Source of the DNA: a virus
Direction: 5' to 3' (one strand)
Length of the DNA: 64,000 nt
Virus record (IMG/VR): IMGVR_UViG_3300039191_000223
Location: 1-64,000 of that record
In this document: positions 37,507-63,526 of the stretch, piece after piece
Layout of the letters: every line of letters begins with the position of its first letter
Position numbering within the stretch: the first letter of the stretch is position 1
Notes under the pieces: model-generated
The model's database searches: none
What the model was told of the DNA's origin: nothing
The model's input: only the letters and a program-made list of their open reading frames with translations
Program-made: the position numbers and the translations under genes

Positions 37507-38559
37507 TCATGATGTGCCCTCCTTGTCAACGATTGCACCCAAATAGGGTAGCAATGCATTATCCCACGAGTGGTTATTGCGAGTTGCTAGCATACACTGG
37601 TTGCGATCAATTAGCAAAGCATTCTTGACAGCTACTGCCAAGTCATCGTTCATGGAACCGGTTACTCCCTCTTGAATGATATCCTTTGGTCCTGTAACCG
37701 GGAAGGCCGCAACAGGCGTCCCACACGCCATCGCCTCCAAATTTACAAGCCCAAAGGTATCGGTTTTTGACGGGAACACCATGATATCCATCTTGTTGTA
37801 TTCTGCCACAAGATTCTTGCCAAATTTATATCCAACAAACCGCACATTGGGATACTTTTTTTCCAAACGTTTACGGTCGGGGCCATCCCCCACAACAATT
37901 TTTTTACCAAGATAATCTGGAAGGTCCAAGAAGGCTTCCATGTTTTTCTCGACCGATACTCGACCAACATATCCTAGATTGGGTAGGTCAGGATAGTCCA
38001 AGCTTCTCGACCCGTTCTGTAAATGTTGAACCGGTCTAAATACGCCAGTATCAACCCCTCGGTTCCAAACCACGGTGTTATTAATACCCCATTCGGTTAA
38101 TTCTTCTTGCATAGATTTAGTAGTTACTAAAACAGATGATGCGCGGTTATGCATCCATCGCATTACAGCATATCCCCATGAGAGTTTTAGAAAACTCCAT
38201 CGGGCGTTAGCATATTCTGGAAAGCGAGTATGATATGACGTGATGTATGGGATGTTGTGGCGATGACAATATAGTCGTGCCATAAGACCAATAGGCCCTT
38301 CAGTGGCTATATGGACGTACTGGGCAAACTTAATCTGCGTAGCTACAGTTCTGTATACTTTAACCATATTCCATGGCATTAAAACTTCTTTATAGAGGGG
38401 GAACCTATAGCATTTAAACTGGGATGGCTCGACAATACCCACCATATAGTCCATGTCTAGAAGTTGTTTCGTAAGTTGGGTGAGCGTCGTGACAACACCA
38501 TTTACTTGAGGTGACCACGCATCAGTAACTAAAACAATACGCTTAGTTGGTGTACTCAT
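37507..38559 (-). CDS. GT4 glycosyltransferase
   Basis: TDAWSPQVNGVV, VGRVSVEKN, DTFGLVNLEAMACG. Confidence 0.92.
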   Translation of the reverse strand: MSTPTKRIVLVTDAWSPQVNGVVTTLTQLTKQLLDMDYMVGIVEPSQFKCYRFPLYKEVLMPWNMVKVYRTVATQIKFAQYVHIATEGPIGLMARLYCHRHNIPYITSYHTRFPEYANARWSFLKLSWGYAVMRWMHNRASSVLVTTKSMQEELTEWGINNTVVWNRGVDTGVFRPVQHLQNGSRSLDYPDLPNLGYVGRVSVEKNMEAFLDLPDYLGKKIVVGDGPDRKRLEKKYPNVRFVGYKFGKNLVAEYNKMDIMVFPSKTDTFGLVNLEAMACGTPVAAFPVTGPKDIIQEGVTGSMNDDLAVAVKNALLIDRNQCMLATRNNHSWDNALLPYLGAIVDKEGTS

Positions 38560-45576: not shown

Positions 45577-46764
45577 CTACTGGTACTCAGTAGCATCGCC
45601 CTTACGAGTCAAGTATGCAGCACTGACACTCTTGAGAATCACACGACCAATCTCATTGTCTCGACGCTCAATCGCGGTTCTGATCACAATACCCTCACGG
45701 ATATGCGCCTCTTTTCCTGACAGCGTTTCCTTACCATCGGTGTATTCCTGCATCACCTCTACCGAAAACGGACCACTGTAAAGAACAGGCATGTACTCAA
45801 CCGCATAGCCACCGTATTTAATCTCGTCACCAATGCCATCGTCCGATTCATGGAGTCTATTCTCAAACCATTCTAGGGCATCAAGTACTTCATCGGAGTT
45901 AAGGTAACGGCCCGTCTCACCATTGCCATTAGGATTGCCCACGTAAATGTCAAACACCCTAAACACCGGTTCCGTAGAGCCATAGTGCAAATCCTGCACA
46001 CCTTTACCGAAAATCTCACCAAGAACAAAGATGCTATCGGTATCCAGTAGGTGAGTAAGCTCATCGACAAGAGCTTGACCAACGTCATTGAACATCTTCA
46101 CATACAGGTTGGAAGCATTCATCGGGTTAAGCTTAAATGCTAGACCCTGCTTGCCAAGACCTTTCGAGTTCACAATGTAAGTCTGGTCATAGATGCCCAT
46201 GGACACAAAGGTCCCGTGCGCCTTCTCCGTGAAGATAACTTCCTCCCCATCCTGAATCACATCCGGGTTGTTTTTCCAATTCTCAATATCGAATCGGAGA
46301 GTCTTGCCACTAGCATTCCAAACCTGCCCTGCCATATGCACCGGAATCGGCGGCTCGTACTTTACGATGCGAAGGTAGTGAGTTACAACAGCACCTTCAG
46401 GCACATAAAGATCAGTAGGACCCTCATCAGGATCGATGAAATGCATGTCATACCATTCGGAGCCATCAGTCGTCTCGCACTTCTTCAAGGGGTAAATCAG
46501 ACCTTGAGACAGCACACCGCGAAGCTTGATAGCCTTCACACGGTCACTGTTTTTACCAGCAAGCCTACCTTCCAGCCCAAGCTCTTTAACAAGCCACTGG
46601 GGCAACACAGCCTGTTCAGGAATATAAACGGCAAGGTCGCCCGTCTGGAACTGTCCCTTACGCACGATAGAACGATATCCACCAACGACAGCGAGTTCGA
46701 GAGCATCAGCATTCGGATGCTCTTCGATGGTTAGTCTAACTACTTTGACGTTAAATTCTGACAT
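45577..46764 (-). CDS. RNA ligase, DRB0094-like family with N-terminal OB domain
   Basis: HPNADAL, LRGVLSQG, TEKAHG, GEIFG, REGIV, LKSVS..YL. Confidence 0.88.
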   Translation of the reverse strand: MSEFNVKVVRLTIEEHPNADALELAVVGGYRSIVRKGQFQTGDLAVYIPEQAVLPQWLVKELGLEGRLAGKNSDRVKAIKLRGVLSQGLIYPLKKCETTDGSEWYDMHFIDPDEGPTDLYVPEGAVVTHYLRIVKYEPPIPVHMAGQVWNASGKTLRFDIENWKNNPDVIQDGEEVIFTEKAHGTFVSMGIYDQTYIVNSKGLGKQGLAFKLNPMNASNLYVKMFNDVGQALVDELTHLLDTDSIFVLGEIFGKGVQDLHYGSTEPVFRVFDIYVGNPNGNGETGRYLNSDEVLDALEWFENRLHESDDGIGDEIKYGGYAVEYMPVLYSGPFSVEVMQEYTDGKETLSGKEAHIREGIVIRTAIERRDNEIGRVILKSVSAAYLTRKGDATEYQ

Positions 46765-47477: not shown

Positions 47478-48143
47478 TCAATTTCGTTGAAGGCGCAACA
47501 TATTTCGCTCGCCCCCAGACCACATCCAATGCTGGTCAGTCTGTACATGGCCTTTACGCACAAACTTAGCTATACTTTGTTGGAAGTCCTTAAGTTGAAA
47601 GCTTCCAGCTGGACGAATAACGTAGCCCTCAACAGTCTTTTGCATATCATCAGTATACAAAGCCTTGATCGCTTCCTCATCATACACGCCACGATAAAGA
47701 ACCGGCACATGATCCATATGATACTGCTCACCTGTTTTGATATGCCACTGTGTATTATTGCAGCGCTCAACGGTATCATCCCACGACAATGCAGTGTCAC
47801 CTTCCCACCACGAAAAGGCAAGAAAATAAGATGGTAATTGCGTGTAGATAATAGAATGCACAGCGAACATATTTTCACCACAGATTCGTTCATCATCTTT
47901 CAGTTTGAAGGAGACAGAACCCCACAGGTTTTTGACCCATTCACGAGACCAGTGGTATCCACTATTGACAGATCGAGCATGGATATGATCCCGATACATG
48001 GTGGTGCACTCCCCATCCATTTTCTCGGTAACAACAACTTCCATGCCCGCAAAGGCTGTAGTCGTATCGAGAATGATATCGTCTTCATCTGCACCCGGAG
48101 ACCAAGGCAAATGTGGGGTGCGGGGATATTTAACATACGTCAT
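47478..48143 (-). CDS. RNA ligase family protein
   Basis: KYPRTPHLPWS, TEKMDGE, CGEN, EGYV, AKFVR. Confidence 0.88.
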   Translation of the reverse strand: MTYVKYPRTPHLPWSPGADEDDIILDTTTAFAGMEVVVTEKMDGECTTMYRDHIHARSVNSGYHWSREWVKNLWGSVSFKLKDDERICGENMFAVHSIIYTQLPSYFLAFSWWEGDTALSWDDTVERCNNTQWHIKTGEQYHMDHVPVLYRGVYDEEAIKALYTDDMQKTVEGYVIRPAGSFQLKDFQQSIAKFVRKGHVQTDQHWMWSGGERNMLRLQRN

Positions 48144-49828: not shown

Positions 49829-51109
49829 TTATCTAAATCGTTTGGAACCATGGACCCAAATAACTAAGGCCCATCGTTCACCTTCTTGCATTGGTGTTAC
49901 TTTATGTAGACAATAACTTGGGAACAGTGCCAAAGCACCCCGATCCCGCGAAGCATTTAGCATTTCACCGTTGCTATTGACCATCAAATCACCACCAGTA
50001 TATTGATCAGGTGCGGTTAGTTGCACCGACACACTAATTTTCCGCGTAGAACTTGTCATGTTTCCCACGTCAACATGCCACTCATAGTGGCCGGGGTCTT
50101 CGCCAGAATCGTAATGTAGAAGCTGGAGTTCATGCGTAATCCCCATGATTTCATAATCAAAGTGTTCCGCGTTTACAATACTCACAATACGCGCTAGCTT
50201 ATCAAATGCCCAACGTGTATCATCGTTCATTGGAATTTGATATAAGTCTACATTGCGAATATCTTTCTTAATTAGACCATCAGCACCAGCACCTATACTG
50301 CCTTCTTCCGCGTACATGGATGATGCAAACCCAATGATCCGTTCACACTCTTCTGGGGTAAACGCAAGGTTTGGATGTGTTGTAGACGTAATACTAGCTA
50401 AACCGGGAATCTGTAGGTCCCAACTTGGAATCATTACACCGTTATAAATCGGGAATACTCCTTGTCGCGATTGTTTTACGTTACCAGTGTCAGGACTTTG
50501 CTGCCCTACAGTTTGGTTTTGATTTTCTGCCTTAGTGTCGGCACCCAGCCCAAGCTCAGGTCTGCCGTCAAATTTATTATCTTTGTGTGGTCCGTTGGCG
50601 TCTACGAAATGAAAAAATACTTGGCACTGCCATTCACCTTTAAATTCTGGACGCCAATGTACAAGGTCTTCTCCACGGTATAGCAAAAAGTCACCAATCT
50701 TAAGATCAACACGTTTCCCGCGTTCATCGTTAGGGTCAGCCGCTAGATAAATTGGCCAGACATTCATGCCATCAAATCCCAGCGTTAGTGTACCGCTAAT
50801 CTCACATGATGGGCGATCAGTATGTCGCGATAGCACTTCACCCGTTCGATAGATACGCGCATAGGTATATGTTGGGGTCAACTCTTTTCCAATGTGCTGT
50901 CCAATTGGCTCAGCAAGTTTTTCTAACAATCCATCAAACACTGGATCACCATAAATCGCTTCCGACTTAGGACACTGGTCATCCTTCACCATTTTACCAT
51001 CTTCACACAATTGGAACATACGCTTTGTTAGATTTTCACATAAATCTTTGGATAGCACATCATGCAACAGAACATATGAATTATTCTCAAAATATTCTCT
51101 GGGCGTCAT
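49829..51109 (-). CDS. tandem 2OG-Fe(II) oxygenase (two domains)
   Basis: HTD...HWR and HVD...RKIS...HKV...R. Confidence 0.88.
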   Translation of the reverse strand: MTPREYFENNSYVLLHDVLSKDLCENLTKRMFQLCEDGKMVKDDQCPKSEAIYGDPVFDGLLEKLAEPIGQHIGKELTPTYTYARIYRTGEVLSRHTDRPSCEISGTLTLGFDGMNVWPIYLAADPNDERGKRVDLKIGDFLLYRGEDLVHWRPEFKGEWQCQVFFHFVDANGPHKDNKFDGRPELGLGADTKAENQNQTVGQQSPDTGNVKQSRQGVFPIYNGVMIPSWDLQIPGLASITSTTHPNLAFTPEECERIIGFASSMYAEEGSIGAGADGLIKKDIRNVDLYQIPMNDDTRWAFDKLARIVSIVNAEHFDYEIMGITHELQLLHYDSGEDPGHYEWHVDVGNMTSSTRKISVSVQLTAPDQYTGGDLMVNSNGEMLNASRDRGALALFPSYCLHKVTPMQEGERWALVIWVHGSKRFR

Positions 51110-51936
51110 GTCAATACCTCTGGATAAAACATTTCATAATACGGTAGGTTGCGTTCTATAATTTGCTTGTGGAATGCAGGATCGCTTACGCGCTTTTCTT
51201 TCTTCTTTGTCAGCAGCGAGGGCGATACCTTATGGCTAGTCCGCTCTCGGAAATAGACGGCATCGTGTTCATAGATTTCAGATTGTTGAATATTGTCAAA
51301 ATCGTGTTCGAATTTTTCTTCACCTAAGAACGAGTATACCCTATTTAACTCTTTGAACGGATCGACAATAAGGTCTTCATATCGAATGAAAATAACGTCA
51401 CGGGTCTGCTTGCGTGCAGCCTCTAGTACACGAGGAAGCTCATAGGTGAACGCCCCCGACAAAGGGTTTCCCGTTTCGAAATAATAGCGATATCGTTCTT
51501 GATCTGTCATACCCGGAAGTAACCCATGAGTTTTATCAAAGGTATGCATGATTTTTGTTTTTGCATTTACACGATCAAAGGATTCGACAATATCTCGTAG
51601 ATCACGAATCATAGCAATGTATTTACCTTCGGGGAACAGGTGGTAATAGCCCGACCAATTTCTAGACTTAGAAATGACCACTGGCTTATCAGTAAGTGCA
51701 TCAAACCAACCATGGACCCCGGCAATCGCAAATCCGTGCAATGCTTCGTCAGCCCGCTCTATAGGCATAGCCATGAATTCTTCACGACCCCTAGTGTTAA
51801 TTGCGACTTGATTTAGGATGTTAGGAACAGGACACGTTCCGGTTGTAAAGATACGATGATTTTGCTGAAGGACGTTCATTAAAACTGTAGAGCCTGAACG
51901 AGGGAGTCCCCCACAGAAGTGCAATTGTTTTGGCAT
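51106..51936 (-). CDS. sulfotransferase
   Basis: GLPRSGST, RD...S, RYEDL. Confidence 0.88.
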   Translation of the reverse strand: MPKQLHFCGGLPRSGSTVLMNVLQQNHRIFTTGTCPVPNILNQVAINTRGREEFMAMPIERADEALHGFAIAGVHGWFDALTDKPVVISKSRNWSGYYHLFPEGKYIAMIRDLRDIVESFDRVNAKTKIMHTFDKTHGLLPGMTDQERYRYYFETGNPLSGAFTYELPRVLEAARKQTRDVIFIRYEDLIVDPFKELNRVYSFLGEEKFEHDFDNIQQSEIYEHDAVYFRERTSHKVSPSLLTKKKEKRVSDPAFHKQIIERNLPYYEMFYPEVLT

Positions 51937-52578: not shown

Positions 52579-52655
52579 TGGTACGTCAGGTGGGACTTGC
52601 ACCCACTGCCTTCCGCTTATAAGACGGACGCTTTTACTACTTCAGCTTCTGACGC
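52579..52655 (-). tRNA. tRNA-Ile(TAT)
   Basis: TCCGT-CTTATAA-GCGGA; T-loop TGCAAGT; CCA. Confidence 0.8.
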
Positions 52656-54550: not shown

Positions 54551-55255
54551 TTATGCTGGCATGAGAACAGTATTCTCATACAGTTTCTGTCCTTTAACGT
54601 AATTCAATTCACCAAAGATGAAGTCCTTGAAGAACGGAGTATCAAGATAACTATCTTGCCACATTTCTAGAATCAAAATGGGACGATCCCTCCTAAGCAA
54701 TTCTGTCGCACCTTTCAAAGCTTCTTCTTCATATCCCTCAATGTCCAAATGAATTATACTAACCCGATGTCTGGGATGTATAGCCCAATCAAGTATAAAG
54801 ATTAGAACCTCTTCTGAGTTATCTTCTGTAGCTACCCAGCGATCAGATTCTACCTTACTTGCGCATCCGATATCCTTGCCCTGTTCTTTAGTAATCATGC
54901 GAATGGTTTCACCATGGGTAGAGCCAAGGGCAGCATGAATAACTTTCGTTTGGTGCGTATGGTAGTTTAGATCAACGGTGATCTTTGCACAACGATAGTT
55001 TTCGAACACTGGTTCAAAAGCATACACTACTGCGTTATCAGATGCAAGTGCGGGGAGAAAATCACCAAAGTATGCACCTGCATGAACTACAGCACCATCG
55101 CCACGGTTTGCAAGAATGAAGTCAATTGTATCTTTTTCATACGTGTGCCCACCTAGTATCCTTCCAGCAACAGTTCGGTGACTCGAAGAGCGAGGGATAC
55201 AATAGTTCCCATATTTGTTTTTTGCAAAAATGCAATCAATCGCTTCTGACATCAA
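54551..55255 (-). CDS. FkbM-family methyltransferase
   Basis: HAGAYFG, AFEP, HLDIEGYE. Confidence 0.85.
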   Translation of the reverse strand: MMSEAIDCIFAKNKYGNYCIPRSSSHRTVAGRILGGHTYEKDTIDFILANRGDGAVVHAGAYFGDFLPALASDNAVVYAFEPVFENYRCAKITVDLNYHTHQTKVIHAALGSTHGETIRMITKEQGKDIGCASKVESDRWVATEDNSEEVLIFILDWAIHPRHRVSIIHLDIEGYEEEALKGATELLRRDRPILILEMWQDSYLDTPFFKDFIFGELNYVKGQKLYENTVLMPA

Positions 55256-57930: not shown

Positions 57931-58010
57931 TGGCACCCCCGACAGGAGTCGAACCTGCATGAATCCAGTTACTCTTTCTACGGCTTAGAAGGCCAAGGAG
58001 ATACGGGGGC
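57931..58010 (-). ncRNA. D-arm-less tRNA-like RNA with Arg(TCT) anticodon
   Basis: 7-bp acceptor, GGC-CTTCTAA-GCC, canonical T-arm, CCA; only ~7 nt where the D-arm belongs. Confidence 0.75.
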
Positions 58011-58392: not shown

Positions 58393-58469
58393 TGGTAGGG
58401 ATGGTGGGATTCGAACCCACGATTTTGACTTAGGAGGTCAACGTTTGTTCCTGACTAAACTACACCCCT
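58393..58469 (-). tRNA. tRNA-Arg(CCT)
   Basis: TTGAC-CTCCTAA-GTCAA, CCA. Confidence 0.85.
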
Positions 58470-59294: not shown

Positions 59295-59389
59295 TGGCGG
59301 AAGAGGTGGGATTCGAACCCACACGCCGGTTACGACAAACGCTTTTCAAGAGCGTCTCCGCTACCCTGAATCTTTCGGATAACTCTTCC
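59295..59389 (-). tRNA. tRNA-Ser(TGA)
   Basis: ACGCT-CTTGAAA-AGCGT, enlarged D-loop, CCA. Confidence 0.85.
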
Positions 59390-62182: not shown

Positions 62183-62824
62183 TCAAGCCTGTTTTGGAAG
62201 AAATACGGTATCGTTCTTTAACTCGATGACCGGATCATAACCTAGAGTTGCCATGTGTGCAACAGCGGCATCCTTATCAAAGCATGTTTCTAGTATGATT
62301 AGGGGGTTAAACTTGTTAATAGTATTCTCAGCACCTTGTAACGCGGGTACCTCATACCCTTCAACGTCTAAATGTATCACATCACACGACGGTAAATCCA
62401 GACTGTCGAGAGTTATGATTTTATGCTTACCAACCTTCCCATCAACTATGTTATGCTTGCCAGTGTTGTCCCTACACGTATCATCTAAGAAGGCAGTAGT
62501 ACTTTCTTCAGCACCAAGTCCGGTGTTAAATTTATGGTAAGCTGTCGCGTCATTATCGACACAGTTCTTATCAAGTAAATTAAAGCTACGCTTATTTGGC
62601 TCAAACGTATAGACGTTGGAAAAGTAATTGCCGTAGAATCTTGGATACATTCCACAATGCCCACCAGCCTGAACAATGGTATCAAACTTGGTCATATGCT
62701 CAAAGAAATATTCTTTGTGGTTTTTCCAGTCCTTTAGAACGTAATAAAACGACCAGTCATCACCAGTATACCACGCAAGCTTATCTACCCCTTCGATACC
62801 GACTTCCCTATAACAAAATGCCAT
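62183..62824 (-). CDS. FkbM-family methyltransferase
   Basis: QAGGHCG, TFEP, HLDVEGYE. Confidence 0.85.
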   Translation of the reverse strand: MAFCYREVGIEGVDKLAWYTGDDWSFYYVLKDWKNHKEYFFEHMTKFDTIVQAGGHCGMYPRFYGNYFSNVYTFEPNKRSFNLLDKNCVDNDATAYHKFNTGLGAEESTTAFLDDTCRDNTGKHNIVDGKVGKHKIITLDSLDLPSCDVIHLDVEGYEVPALQGAENTINKFNPLIILETCFDKDAAVAHMATLGYDPVIELKNDTVFLPKQA

Positions 62825-62896
62825 GATAATGTATCCTTTAAATATATTTAGTGTGTCGTTAGAGTGATGCATAAATAGTTAATATCGGAGAACAAC

Positions 62897-63526
62897 ATGC
62901 GAATACATCATGTGGAATTAGTAATCACAAACGATAAAGTTATCAATAACTATCATAAGAACGGTGCATTTGAACCCGAAAGTATGAAAGCATGGGAAGC
63001 CGCAGTGAGTAACGGTGGATGTGCCATTGATGTCGGGTCATATAACGGGTTATATTCTATTCGGGCAGCCCAGTTGGGTGCCGCCGCAGTAGCATTCGAA
63101 CCTCTACCCGATAACTATAATCGCATTCAAGAGAACGTTGGTATGAATAATATAGAAATTGAGACGCATGCGTGTGCAGTGGGAGATAAAGCTGCTAGGG
63201 CCTTTTTGTATTTTAGCAACGCTAGGAATACCAGCGGTGGTAGTCTTACAGGAAGTGGTGCCAATAATCGAAGAACCAACAAAGTAATGGTAGAAGTCAT
63301 CACATTGGACCAATTAAATCTAGAAAATGTTGTTGCCATTAAGGCCGACGTGGAAGGCTTCGAACCTAAAGTAATTCAAGGGGCCATCAACTTAATTAAC
63401 ACTTACAAACCACTACTCATACTAGAAGCACTAACAGACGAAATGGAATACAGAATCAAAGCTGAACTTCCAGACTTTTATAAAATACGTCGGGCTGACA
63501 AACGAAACCTGATCTGTGAAGCATAG
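62897..63526 (+). CDS. FkbM-family methyltransferase
   Basis: DVGSYNG, AFEP, KADVEGFE; CATAAATA at 62870-62877. Confidence 0.88.
   Translation: MRIHHVELVITNDKVINNYHKNGAFEPESMKAWEAAVSNGGCAIDVGSYNGLYSIRAAQLGAAAVAFEPLPDNYNRIQENVGMNNIEIETHACAVGDKAARAFLYFSNARNTSGGSLTGSGANNRRTNKVMVEVITLDQLNLENVVAIKADVEGFEPKVIQGAINLINTYKPLLILEALTDEMEYRIKAELPDFYKIRRADKRNLICEA

What the first reader, a model, noticed from the sequence alone, without database searches (positions are those of the whole stretch)
57931..58010. tRNA-Arg(UCU)-like RNA with no D-arm and a D-loop-like motif 3' of the anticodon arm
RNA: GCCCCCG UAUCUCC UUGGC CUUCUAA GCCGU AGAAAGAGUAACUGGAUUCAU GCAGG UUCGACU CCUGU CGGGGGU G CCA. Acceptor, anticodon loop, T-arm and CCA are intact, but the D-arm is replaced by ~7 nt. 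The 21-nt variable region contains UAACUGG (D-loop-like GG) and can pair back to the 5' linker (CUC/GAG, AUC/GAU). Inference: a rewired L-shape whose elbow is built from the variable region, acting as a nuclease-resistant tRNA or as a decoy for anticodon nucleases or synthetases.
Basis: partly seen in the sequence, partly recalled or inferred. Interest (0 to 1): 0.72.

Follow-up and report, generated by a model that had tools for sequence, protein, structure and literature searches.

The report
Phage arginine tRNA with rewired D-arm
This 80-base gene of a jumbo phage is very probably a working arginine tRNA (anticodon UCU) whose D-stem closes around the anticodon arm and whose D-loop comes after it; over a hundred phage and bacterial sequences share this non-cloverleaf layout, and I found no paper describing it.

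Summary
Only 7 nt lie where the D-arm should be.

It is not a deletion pseudogene. I collected 112 distinct homologues with the same layout:
- They come from Streptomyces, E. coli, Vibrio and Xanthomonas phages, metagenomic viral contigs, and tRNA arrays in bacterial assemblies.
- All four helices covary, including a 3-bp helix (CUC/GAG here) between the 5' linker and the 3 nt just before an almost invariant UAAYUGGA.
- That motif reads as D-loop A14-A20, and A20 is the main ArgRS determinant.
- 112 of 114 anticodons are arginine.
- The odd gene usually supplies the isoacceptor that the canonical set lacks. Here the canonical genes are CCU, UCG and ACG, so UCU is missing.

Best reading: a decoding tRNA-Arg with two core blocks in swapped order. 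The L-shape, charging with arginine and any defence-evasion role are inferred, not shown.

This scan has reported the same family many times on other DNA. An earlier 'phage-only' claim does not hold. Ten searches of the paper library found no description of it.

The parts
57931..58010 (-). Whole gene: 77-nt rewired tRNA-Arg(UCU) plus encoded CCA
   Evidence: Sequence. R1 covariance model match at 57934-58010, 95.2 bits (the window is a seed member). Rfam tRNA 27.0 bits.
58004..58010 (-). Acceptor stem, 5' strand (GCCCCCG, RNA 1-7)
   Evidence: Pairs with 57935-57941. All 7 acceptor pairs covary in the family.
58002..58003 (-). U8 A9, invariant dinucleotide after the acceptor stem
   Evidence: UA in 111 of 112 distinct family members.
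57998..58000 (-). 5' strand of the cross-anticodon helix (C11 U12 C13). U10 (58001) lies opposite the invariant U of UAAC.
   Evidence: Pairs with GAG at 57972-57974. 97.5% of cells are paired and all 3 pairs covary. Anchor-only test: 235/261 paired against 148.6 +/- 7.0 in shuffles. RNAalifold on a plain MAFFT alignment predicts the same helix.
57997..57997 (-). Single unpaired C between the helix and the anticodon stem (position-26-like)
   Evidence: Exactly one nucleotide in this column in nearly all members.
57980..57996 (-). Anticodon arm UUGGC-CUUCUAA-GCCGU. Anticodon UCU lies at 57987-57989, with U33 and A37 in place.
   Evidence: Sequence. All stem pairs covary. The outer pair is U.U here and non-standard in 19 of 59 members.
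57975..57979 (-). Linker AGAAA between the anticodon arm and the 3' strand of the helix
   Evidence: Length varies from 3 to 12 nt in the family.
57972..57974 (-). 3' strand of the cross-anticodon helix (GAG)
   Evidence: As for 57998-58000.
57963..57971 (-). D-loop-like motif UAACUGGAU, read as U13-like, A14, A15, C16, U17, G18, G19, A20
   Evidence: UAAYUGGA in 103 of 112 members. GG followed by A matches the bacterial ArgRS determinant A20 (PMC9976931). The numbering is an inference.
57959..57962 (-). Connector UCAU to the T-arm; the final AU is conserved
   Evidence: AU directly before the T stem in 110 of 112 members. A U48-like partner for A15 is an inference.
57942..57958 (-). T-arm GCAGG-UUCGACU-CCUGU
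   Evidence: T-loop UUCRA in all 112 members. 4 of 5 stem pairs covary; the fifth never varies.
57931..57941 (-). Acceptor 3' strand CGGGGGU, discriminator G73, encoded CCA
   Evidence: Sequence. CCA is encoded in 70 of 112 members.

Best explanation
The element is a working elongator tRNA-Arg(UCU) of a XacN1-like jumbo myovirus, reading AGA (and AGG). It belongs to a large family of mobile-element tRNAs with non-cloverleaf wiring.

Shown by comparative analysis:
- The acceptor, anticodon and T arms are standard.
- A 3-bp helix (CUC/GAG here) forms between the 5' linker and the three nucleotides just upstream of a nearly invariant UAAYUGGA. The anticodon arm is therefore nested inside what corresponds to the D-stem, and the D-loop-like sequence follows it.

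Inferred:
- The helix stacks on the anticodon stem.
- UAAYUGGA plays the part of A14-A20. G18 and G19 dock on the canonical T-loop, and A20 is presented to ArgRS.
- The invariant U8 and A9 take the roles of U8 and A21.
- The conserved AU before the T stem supplies a U48-like partner for A15.
- In effect, two adjacent core blocks (9-21 and 22-45 of a normal tRNA) are joined in swapped order. Their ends all meet in the tRNA core, so the L-shape can be kept.
- The host ArgRS charges it through A20, C35, U36 and G73.

Why this wiring exists is not known.
For: 1. Homologues. 59 matches in phage and viral contigs and about 55 in bacterial and archaeal assemblies have the same layout. They score at least 31 bits with model R1, against at most about 30 bits for ordinary tRNAs. 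This gives 112 distinct sequences.

2. Covariation.
- 97% of cells are paired and 19 of 20 pairs change on both sides.
- The middle pair of the new helix is UA 18, GC 15, CG 9, AU 3.
- An anchor-only test with no alignment freedom gives 235/261 paired against 148.6 +/- 7.0, with 0 of 5000 shuffles reaching it. It shows 8 different complementary triplets.
- RNAalifold on a plain MAFFT alignment predicts the same four helices.

3. Arginine identity.
- Anticodons are UCU 66, ACG 31, CCU 10, UCG 4 and CCG 1, with only 2 GAU.
- GGA (A20) is nearly invariant. A20, C35, U/G36 and A/G73 are the bacterial Arg determinants (PMC9976931).
- One of the two Ile(GAU) members has GGU-U and A73, which fits Ile determinants U20, U21 and A73.

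4. Non-redundancy.
- This phage record has 40 ARAGORN tRNAs with canonical Arg CCU, UCG and ACG but no UCU.
- In 43 loci that also hold canonical Arg genes, only 3 of 50 family members duplicate one. Shuffling gives 16.1 +/- 2.9, and 0 of 20000 shuffles are as low.

5. Gene context. Members lie in tRNA arrays a few bases from neighbouring tRNAs, and 70 of 112 encode CCA.
Against: - There is no expression, processing, aminoacylation or decoding data for any member.
- The L-shape and the D-loop numbering are inferences. The invariant positions cannot be tested by covariation.
- In many ACG-type members the helix has only 2 standard pairs (CCC/AGG in 17 sequences).
- In this copy the anticodon stem has a U.U outer pair.
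- The complementarity statistic treats related loci as independent.
- The window sequence is in the seed of model R1.
- A note in this scan's records says part of the same claim, made on other DNA, fell on later checking. It does not say which part.
Confidence: 0.8

Rival explanations
1. A non-decoding decoy. The RNA mimics tRNA-Arg to soak up a host anticodon nuclease, or to bind ArgRS or another tRNA-binding protein, but it is not used by the ribosome.
For: - The anticodon loop is identical to ordinary Arg loops, while the core is unusual.
- Phage tRNAs are known to counter tRNA-targeting defences (PMC10264068, PMC11464382, PMC11555353; listed).
- The phage carries an RNA ligase gene at 45577-46764, which is compatible with pressure from tRNA damage.
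Against: - A decoy should copy the targeted isoacceptor whatever else the phage encodes. Instead, family members avoid the anticodons of canonical Arg genes in the same locus.
- The acceptor stem, discriminator, CCA and T-loop are all kept as for a chargeable tRNA.
- Five different Arg anticodons are represented.
Confidence: 0.1
2. A structured tRNA-like RNA with another role, such as an integration or recombination site, a homing-endonuclease target, a processing signal in the tRNA operon, or a regulator.
For: - HNH endonuclease genes lie beside some copies (TomSawyer, Bas93).
- One bacterial copy lies about 1.3 kb from prophage genes: a tail-related ORF (PhageMin_Tail, scoring below Pfam's gathering threshold) and a large terminase.
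Against: - A DNA-level site would not produce RNA-type compensatory changes in four helices.
- It would not restrict the loop triplet to arginine anticodons.
- Most copies have no HNH neighbour.
Confidence: 0.05
3. A decaying pseudogene: a tRNA-Arg that lost its D-arm by deletion.
For: ARAGORN misses it and Rfam scores it below threshold. The folding energy of the single sequence is not unusual, with z = -0.57.
Against: - 112 distinct sequences in unrelated phage lineages and in bacteria keep the same layout, with covariation and invariant motifs.
- It is the only UCU gene in a record that otherwise has Arg ACG, UCG and CCU among its 40 tRNAs.
Confidence: 0.02

Closest known systems
Canonical class I bacterial and phage tRNA-Arg (Rfam RF00005), for example this phage's own tRNA-Arg(CCU) at window 58393-58469
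   Same: - 7-bp acceptor stem, discriminator and CCA.
- 5-bp/7-nt anticodon arm with U33 and R37.
- T-arm with a UUCRA loop.
- Arg anticodons.
- A D-loop-type sequence with GG followed by A20.
- Helix base pairs C-G, U-A, C-G, as in the GCUC/GAGC type of D-stem. That D-stem comparison rests on my own knowledge of E. coli tRNA-Arg and was not checked with a tool.
   Different: - The D-stem strands lie on either side of the anticodon arm rather than around the D-loop.
- The D-loop follows the 3' strand.
- There is no separate 4-5-nt variable loop.
- It scores below the Rfam gathering threshold (27.0 against 29 bits), and ARAGORN misses it.
D-armless mitochondrial tRNAs (for example metazoan mt-tRNA-Ser(AGY) and nematode mt-tRNA-Ser(UCU); review PMC7609411)
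   Same: No D-arm hairpin between the acceptor and anticodon arms, and only a short connector on the 5' side.
   Different: - The mitochondrial forms lose the D-loop and have reduced or flexible elbows.
- This family keeps a nearly invariant D-loop-like motif and a canonical T-loop, and it rebuilds a D-stem-like helix across the anticodon arm.
- It is found in phages and bacteria, which use standard translation machinery.
Class II tRNAs (Leu, Ser, Tyr) with a long variable arm
   Same: About 20 nt lie between the anticodon arm and the T-arm.
   Different: - Here that region does not form its own hairpin (no covariation). Instead it pairs with the 5' linker.
- Class II tRNAs keep a normal D-arm.
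Circularly permuted tRNA genes of Cyanidioschyzon merolae (from my own knowledge; not checked here)
   Same: The order of tRNA segments in the gene departs from the textbook.
   Different: - Those genes are permuted at the termini and are processed into an ordinary cloverleaf.
- Here the termini are normal, and the swap is internal and would persist in the mature RNA.
8/4 and 9/3 'allo-tRNAs' and 8/4 tRNA-Ser/His of phage tRNA clusters (Mukai et al. 2017, PMC5389517)
   Same: Non-standard tRNA architectures carried in phage and bacterial tRNA gene clusters and missed by routine annotation.
   Different: Those forms change the lengths of the acceptor and T stems. This family keeps 7/5 and rewires the D region. 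That paper's main text does not mention such Arg tRNAs.

Membership tests
Canonical tRNA (Rfam RF00005 cloverleaf) | 7-bp acceptor stem with discriminator (and CCA) | tested here: met
   GCCCCCG/CGGGGGU, G73 and CCA. All 7 pairs covary in the family.
Canonical tRNA (Rfam RF00005 cloverleaf) | D-arm hairpin (stem 10-13/22-25 enclosing the D-loop) between the acceptor and anticodon arms | tested here: not met
   Only 7 nt lie there. cmscan deletes the D-arm positions.
Canonical tRNA (Rfam RF00005 cloverleaf) | Anticodon arm with a 7-nt loop, U33 and R37 | tested here: met
   Loop CUUCUAA; 4 standard pairs plus U.U.
Canonical tRNA (Rfam RF00005 cloverleaf) | T-arm with a 5-bp stem and a UUCRA-type loop | tested here: met
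   GCAGG-UUCGACU-CCUGU. The loop is invariant in 112 members.
Canonical tRNA (Rfam RF00005 cloverleaf) | Score at or above the family's gathering threshold (29 bits) | tested here: not met
   27.0 bits, E = 0.0034 in a 1-kb search. It is absent from the gathering-threshold scan.
Rewired (block-swapped) tRNA-Arg family, as defined here by model R1 | Helix between the 5' linker and the 3 nt immediately 5' of UAAYUGGA, enclosing the anticodon arm | tested here: met
   CUC/GAG in the window. Covariation.
Rewired (block-swapped) tRNA-Arg family, as defined here by model R1 | UAAYUGGA motif after the helix, and AU before the T stem | tested here: met
   UAACUGGA and ...CAU are present. Family frequencies are 103/112 and 110/112.
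Rewired (block-swapped) tRNA-Arg family, as defined here by model R1 | Arginine anticodon | tested here: met
   UCU. 112 of 114 family anticodons are Arg.
Functional bacterial tRNA-Arg (ArgRS substrate) | Identity set A20, C35, U/G36, A/G73 (PMC9976931) | tested here: inconclusive
   C35, U36 and G73 are present. An A follows GG as A20 would, but this numbering in a rewired RNA is an inference. Charging cannot be tested with these tools.
D-armless mitochondrial-type tRNA | Loss of the D-loop/T-loop elbow elements, with a short flexible connector only | tested here: not met
   The GG-containing motif and the canonical T-loop are conserved.
Class II tRNA | Long variable region that forms its own stem-loop | tested here: not met
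   The GAGU/AUUC hairpin of the minimum-energy fold is 63% paired, no better than shuffles, with no covariation.
Circularly permuted tRNA gene | The 3' half is encoded upstream of the 5' half, with the acceptor ends internal to the gene | tested here: not met
   The acceptor strands lie at the two ends of the gene.

The most novel reading that the evidence does not exclude
The rewiring is adaptive, not a frozen accident. It keeps what ArgRS, EF-Tu and the ribosome read (A20, anticodon, acceptor/T domain, L-shape). It removes the D-arm hairpin and variable-loop geometry that some tRNA-targeting nuclease or modifier, of the host or of the phage itself, needs. These arginine tRNAs would therefore keep working when ordinary tRNA-Arg is destroyed. 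That would make it a structural route of immune evasion, distinct from the known anticodon-loop mutations.
Probability: 0.25. Interest if true: 0.9.

Novelty: new variant of a known kind. Interest (0 to 1): 0.8.

Why it matters
Outside mitochondria, elongator tRNAs are taken to follow one cloverleaf wiring. Gene finders, Rfam and annotation pipelines build on that assumption.

A widespread, covarying family of arginine tRNAs with two core blocks in swapped order would have three consequences:
- It would show that the L-shape can be reached by a different chain topology and still serve standard bacterial ArgRS, EF-Tu and ribosomes.
- It would explain apparent gaps in phage and tRNA-array isoacceptor sets, and some misannotations. 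Examples: 121Q gene 124 is labelled tRNA-Leu, Mildred21's copy is labelled tRNA-OTHER, and the copies in XacN1, TomSawyer, Yaboi and Bas93 are unannotated.
- It would give a natural test case for which parts of the tRNA core each enzyme or nuclease reads, and possibly an orthogonal scaffold for engineering.

Tried and rejected
1. Internal hairpin GAGU/AUUC of the variable region, which is the minimum-energy fold. It is 63% paired, equal to shuffles, with no covariation. Rejected.

2. No covariation, and no better than shuffles. Rejected.

3. A 16-mer scan of viral contigs for GAAAGAGTAACNGGAT. Only 7 of the 79 loci held a family member; the rest were chance or coding matches. It was replaced by a motif-plus-T-arm pattern.

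4. The idea that the copy in Mesorhizobium sp. Root552, which lies among housekeeping genes, is the genus's own core tRNA-Arg(UCU). Only 2 of 41 sampled genomes of the genus have a match. It is accessory, not core.

5. 'Phage-only' distribution. Rejected, because members lie in large scaffolds of isolate genomes (Bradyrhizobium, Mesorhizobium, Limoniibacter), mostly in tRNA arrays or next to prophage genes.

6. Ten full-text literature searches and three papers read found no description of this layout. The library lacks most subscription-journal papers, including the 1980s work on T5 tRNA genes, so this is not proof of absence.

7. Pfam scans of neighbouring ORFs found no ArgRS, nuclease or tRNA-modification gene that could be linked to the element.

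8. I could not learn from the scan's records which part of the earlier, similar claim 'fell'.

Full report
**What is there**

On the minus strand, window 57931-58010 reads as follows:
- acceptor GCCCCCG
- UA, then U, then CUC, then C
- anticodon arm UUGGC-CUUCUAA-GCCGU
- AGAAA, then GAG
- UAACUGGAU, then UCAU
- T-arm GCAGG-UUCGACU-CCUGU
- acceptor CGGGGGU, then G, then CCA

ARAGORN finds 11 tRNAs in the window but not this one. Rfam's tRNA model gives 27.0 bits (gathering score 29). Its alignment deletes the D-arm and places 18 nt as an insert in the variable region. On its own the sequence does not fold unusually well, with z = -0.57. The single sequence therefore proves little, and the case rests on comparison.

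**Genomic setting**

The window is the first 64 kb of a 102.7-kb IMG/VR virus record, estimated to be 30% complete.
- It has a T4-type major capsid protein, a T4-type terminase and a UvsW-like helicase.
- Its capsid protein is 73% identical to that of the Xanthomonas jumbo phage XacN1.
- ARAGORN finds 40 tRNA genes on the record, all on the minus strand between 38.8 and 84.9 kb and interspersed with small ORFs. Canonical Arg genes carry anticodons CCU (58393-58469), UCG and ACG. There is no canonical UCU gene.
- The element starts 2 nt after the stop codon of a 58-codon ORF and lies about 100 nt upstream of tRNA-Ser(GCU).

**Homologues**

BLASTN of the 91-nt region against GenBank phages found the same layout in several lineages:
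- Streptomyces phages. TomSawyer and Yaboi carry anticodon CCU and the gene is unannotated. In Mildred21 it is annotated 'tRNA-OTHER'.
- E. coli jumbo phages of the 121Q/PBECO4 group. In 121Q it is annotated tRNA-Leu(taa).
- The 69-kb coliphage Bas93 and a Vibrio phage.

Two motif scans of IMG/VR and one of 185,579 species genomes added many more.

I built covariance model R1 from 12 gap-free sequences, specifying four helices.
- It finds 59 matches of at least 32 bits in the viral loci, where ordinary tRNAs reach at most 28 bits.
- It finds about 55 matches in the genome-contig loci, scoring from 91 bits down to 31.4. There the gap is narrower: ordinary tRNAs reach about 30 bits, and one 32-bit match without the motif was set aside.
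- After de-replication there are 112 distinct sequences of 74-89 nt.
- XacN1 itself carries an unannotated member with anticodon ACG, in two identical copies at 47,790 and 366,585 of the 384.7-kb record.
- ARAGORN called only 5 of the 114 members. It gave three of them an arginine anticodon and labelled the other two tRNA-Leu(CAA) and an undetermined type.

**Secondary structure**

On the model-fitted alignment of 59 sequences:
- 97.0% of cells form standard pairs, against 61.9% in shuffles and 39-47% with slid partners.
- 19 of 20 pairs change on both sides.
- The new helix (5' linker positions 11-13 with the three nucleotides just before UAAY) is 97.5% paired. Its pair types are CG 55, UA 2, AU 1, GC 1; then UA 18, GC 15, CG 9, AU 3; then CG 38, GC 6, AU 4, UA 2.

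A fitted alignment leans towards its own structure, so I ran two independent checks.
- Anchor-only test. I took triplets at fixed offsets from the acceptor end and from the motif start, with no alignment freedom. For the 87 distinct sequences with a 7-nt linker, 235 of 261 positions pair, against 148.6 +/- 7.0 in shuffles (0 of 5000 as high). The triplets include CGG/CCG, CUC/GAG, CCC/GGG, CGA/UCG, CAC/GUG, CGU/ACG, ACC/GGU and CUU/AAG. The 25 sequences with an 8-nt linker behave likewise.
- RNAalifold on a plain MAFFT alignment of 24 diverse members predicts the same four helices.

A weak point is that 17 ACG-type sequences have CCC/AGG, which gives only two standard pairs.

**Conserved single-stranded positions**

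| Feature | Members |
|---|---|
| U8 A9 | 111 of 112 |
| UAAYUGGA | 103 of 112 |
| AU directly before the T stem | 110 of 112 |
| T-loop UUCRA | 112 of 112 |
| CCA encoded | 70 of 112 |

Exactly one nucleotide separates the helix from the anticodon stem in nearly all members.

**Identity and use**

- The anticodons are UCU 66, ACG 31, CCU 10, UCG 4, CCG 1 and GAU 2 (one further row in that tally was an ordinary tRNA let in by my filter).
- The bacterial arginine determinants are A20 (the main one for E. coli ArgRS), C35, U/G36 and A/G73 (PMC9976931, read). If UAAYUGGA is read as U13-A14-A15-Y16-U17-G18-G19-A20, the A after GG is A20.
- One of the two GAU members (L124:2428-2504) has GGU-U and A73. 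This fits the Ile determinants U20, U21 and A73 in the same table. It is a single case, but it points the same way.
- Members sit in tRNA arrays a few bases from their neighbours: 4 nt after tRNA-Ser in 121Q, 4 nt after tRNA-Gly in Mildred21, and in tandem in L172.
- They are non-redundant. In 43 loci that also hold canonical Arg genes, 3 of 50 members share an anticodon with one, against 16.1 +/- 2.9 after shuffling (0 of 20000 as low). Related loci are not independent, so the size of the effect matters more than the p-value. The window's own genome is one such case.

**Mechanism: inferred steps**

The helix is nested directly outside the anticodon stem with a one-nucleotide spacer, so it should stack on that stem as the D-stem does. 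The strand that runs away from the anticodon stem (GAG, then U) continues into AAYUGGA. In a normal tRNA, 10-13 continue into 14-20 in the same way. The strand that runs towards the anticodon stem (UCUC, then C) corresponds in position to 22-26.

Read this way, the chain goes 7, U8, A (in the place of A21), 22-26, anticodon arm, a linker in the place of 44-45, then 10-13, 14-20, a connector ending in a U48-like U, and then 49. That amounts to swapping blocks 9-21 and 22-45.

In the known tRNA core, the ends of these blocks meet through the triples 8-14-21, 9-12-23, 45-10-25 and 46-22-13. This is textbook yeast tRNA-Phe geometry and comes from my own knowledge. The new joins therefore need only short linkers, which is what is observed.

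None of this was modelled in 3D here.

**Distribution**

The family is not confined to phage records.
- Members lie in 8.3-9.0-Mb Bradyrhizobium genomes, within arrays of 13-22 tRNAs.
- One member lies about 1.3 kb from prophage genes in Limoniibacter.
- One lies among housekeeping genes in Mesorhizobium sp. Root552. Only 2 of 41 sampled genomes of that genus have a match, so it is accessory there.
- Many further hits are in metagenome-assembled genomes (Blastocatellia, Bryobacterales, Planctomycetes, Saprospiraceae, Saccharimonadales, and a few archaeal bins). Some of those contigs may be mis-binned phage DNA.

**Comparison with what is known**

The RNA works like a class I tRNA-Arg, but it fails two defining features of the cloverleaf family: the D-arm hairpin and the Rfam threshold.
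- It differs from D-armless mitochondrial tRNAs because it keeps the elbow elements.
- It differs from class II tRNAs because the long region does not fold on itself.
- It differs from permuted tRNA genes because its termini are normal.

Ten full-text searches found no description, and neither did the review of non-canonical tRNAs (PMC7609411) or the main text of Mukai et al. 2017 (PMC5389517). The library does not cover most subscription journals.

**Earlier notes of this scan**

After I had formed my reading (stated), look-ups showed that this scan has reported the same family on many other genomes, with the same interpretation. One note says that part of the same claim, made on other DNA, fell on later checking, without saying which part. 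An earlier 'phage-only' wording is contradicted by my. The claims about L-shape and charging remain untested here as well.

**Verdict**

The most likely function is ordinary decoding of AGA/AGG by a tRNA-Arg with a block-swapped core (confidence 0.8). The reason for this architecture is open.

Noticed in passing
window 59295-59379 (-): Probable tRNA-Ser(UGA) directly upstream of the ARAGORN-called tRNA-Ser(CGA). It has GGAAGAG/CUCUUCC acceptor strands, a CUUGAAA anticodon loop, a canonical T-arm and CCA. ARAGORN misses it, and R1 gives only a weak 24-bit hit at 59298-59365.
   Followed up: partly
window 52582-52655 (-): Rfam tRNA match of 58.2 bits that ARAGORN does not report. I did not determine its isotype.
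   Followed up: no
window 45577-46764 (-): RNA ligase gene (PF09414 plus an OB-fold domain) at the edge of the tRNA region. T4-type phages use RNA ligases to repair nuclease-cut tRNAs, so tRNA damage may matter to this phage.
   Followed up: no
window 37507-38559, 51106-51936, 54551-55255, 62183-62872 (all -) and 62897-63526 (+): A GT4 glycosyltransferase, a sulfotransferase and three FkbM-type methyltransferase genes are scattered among the tRNA genes.
   Followed up: no
G000:C1:84842-84917 and 78997-79070 (same record, beyond the window): ARAGORN reports a tRNA with anticodon CUA, labelled Pyl, which would be an amber suppressor type. It also reports a 'tRNA-???' with a two-base anticodon call.
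   Followed up: no
L124:2428-2504 (-) and L154:193-271 (-): Two family members carry the isoleucine anticodon GAU. The first also has GGU-U instead of GGA, and A73, matching the bacterial Ile determinants U20, U21 and A73.
   Followed up: partly
L082:1496-1577 (E. coli phage 121Q gene 124); AP018399.1 47790-47866 and 366585-366661 (XacN1); L084:1502-1576 (Mildred21): Public annotations of family members are wrong or missing: tRNA-Leu(taa) in 121Q, nothing in XacN1, and tRNA-OTHER in Mildred21. In TomSawyer an annotated HNH endonuclease CDS overlaps the 5' part of the gene.
   Followed up: partly
L209:2879-4501 (-) (Bradyrhizobium sp. C9): A Ro60/TROVE-family protein gene lies inside the 18-tRNA array that holds the rewired tRNA-Arg(ACG).
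   Followed up: no
window 57980-57996 (-) and alignment A3 columns 17/33: The outermost anticodon-stem pair is U.U here and is non-standard in 19 of 59 family members. Many members therefore have in effect a 4-bp anticodon stem next to the new helix.
   Followed up: no
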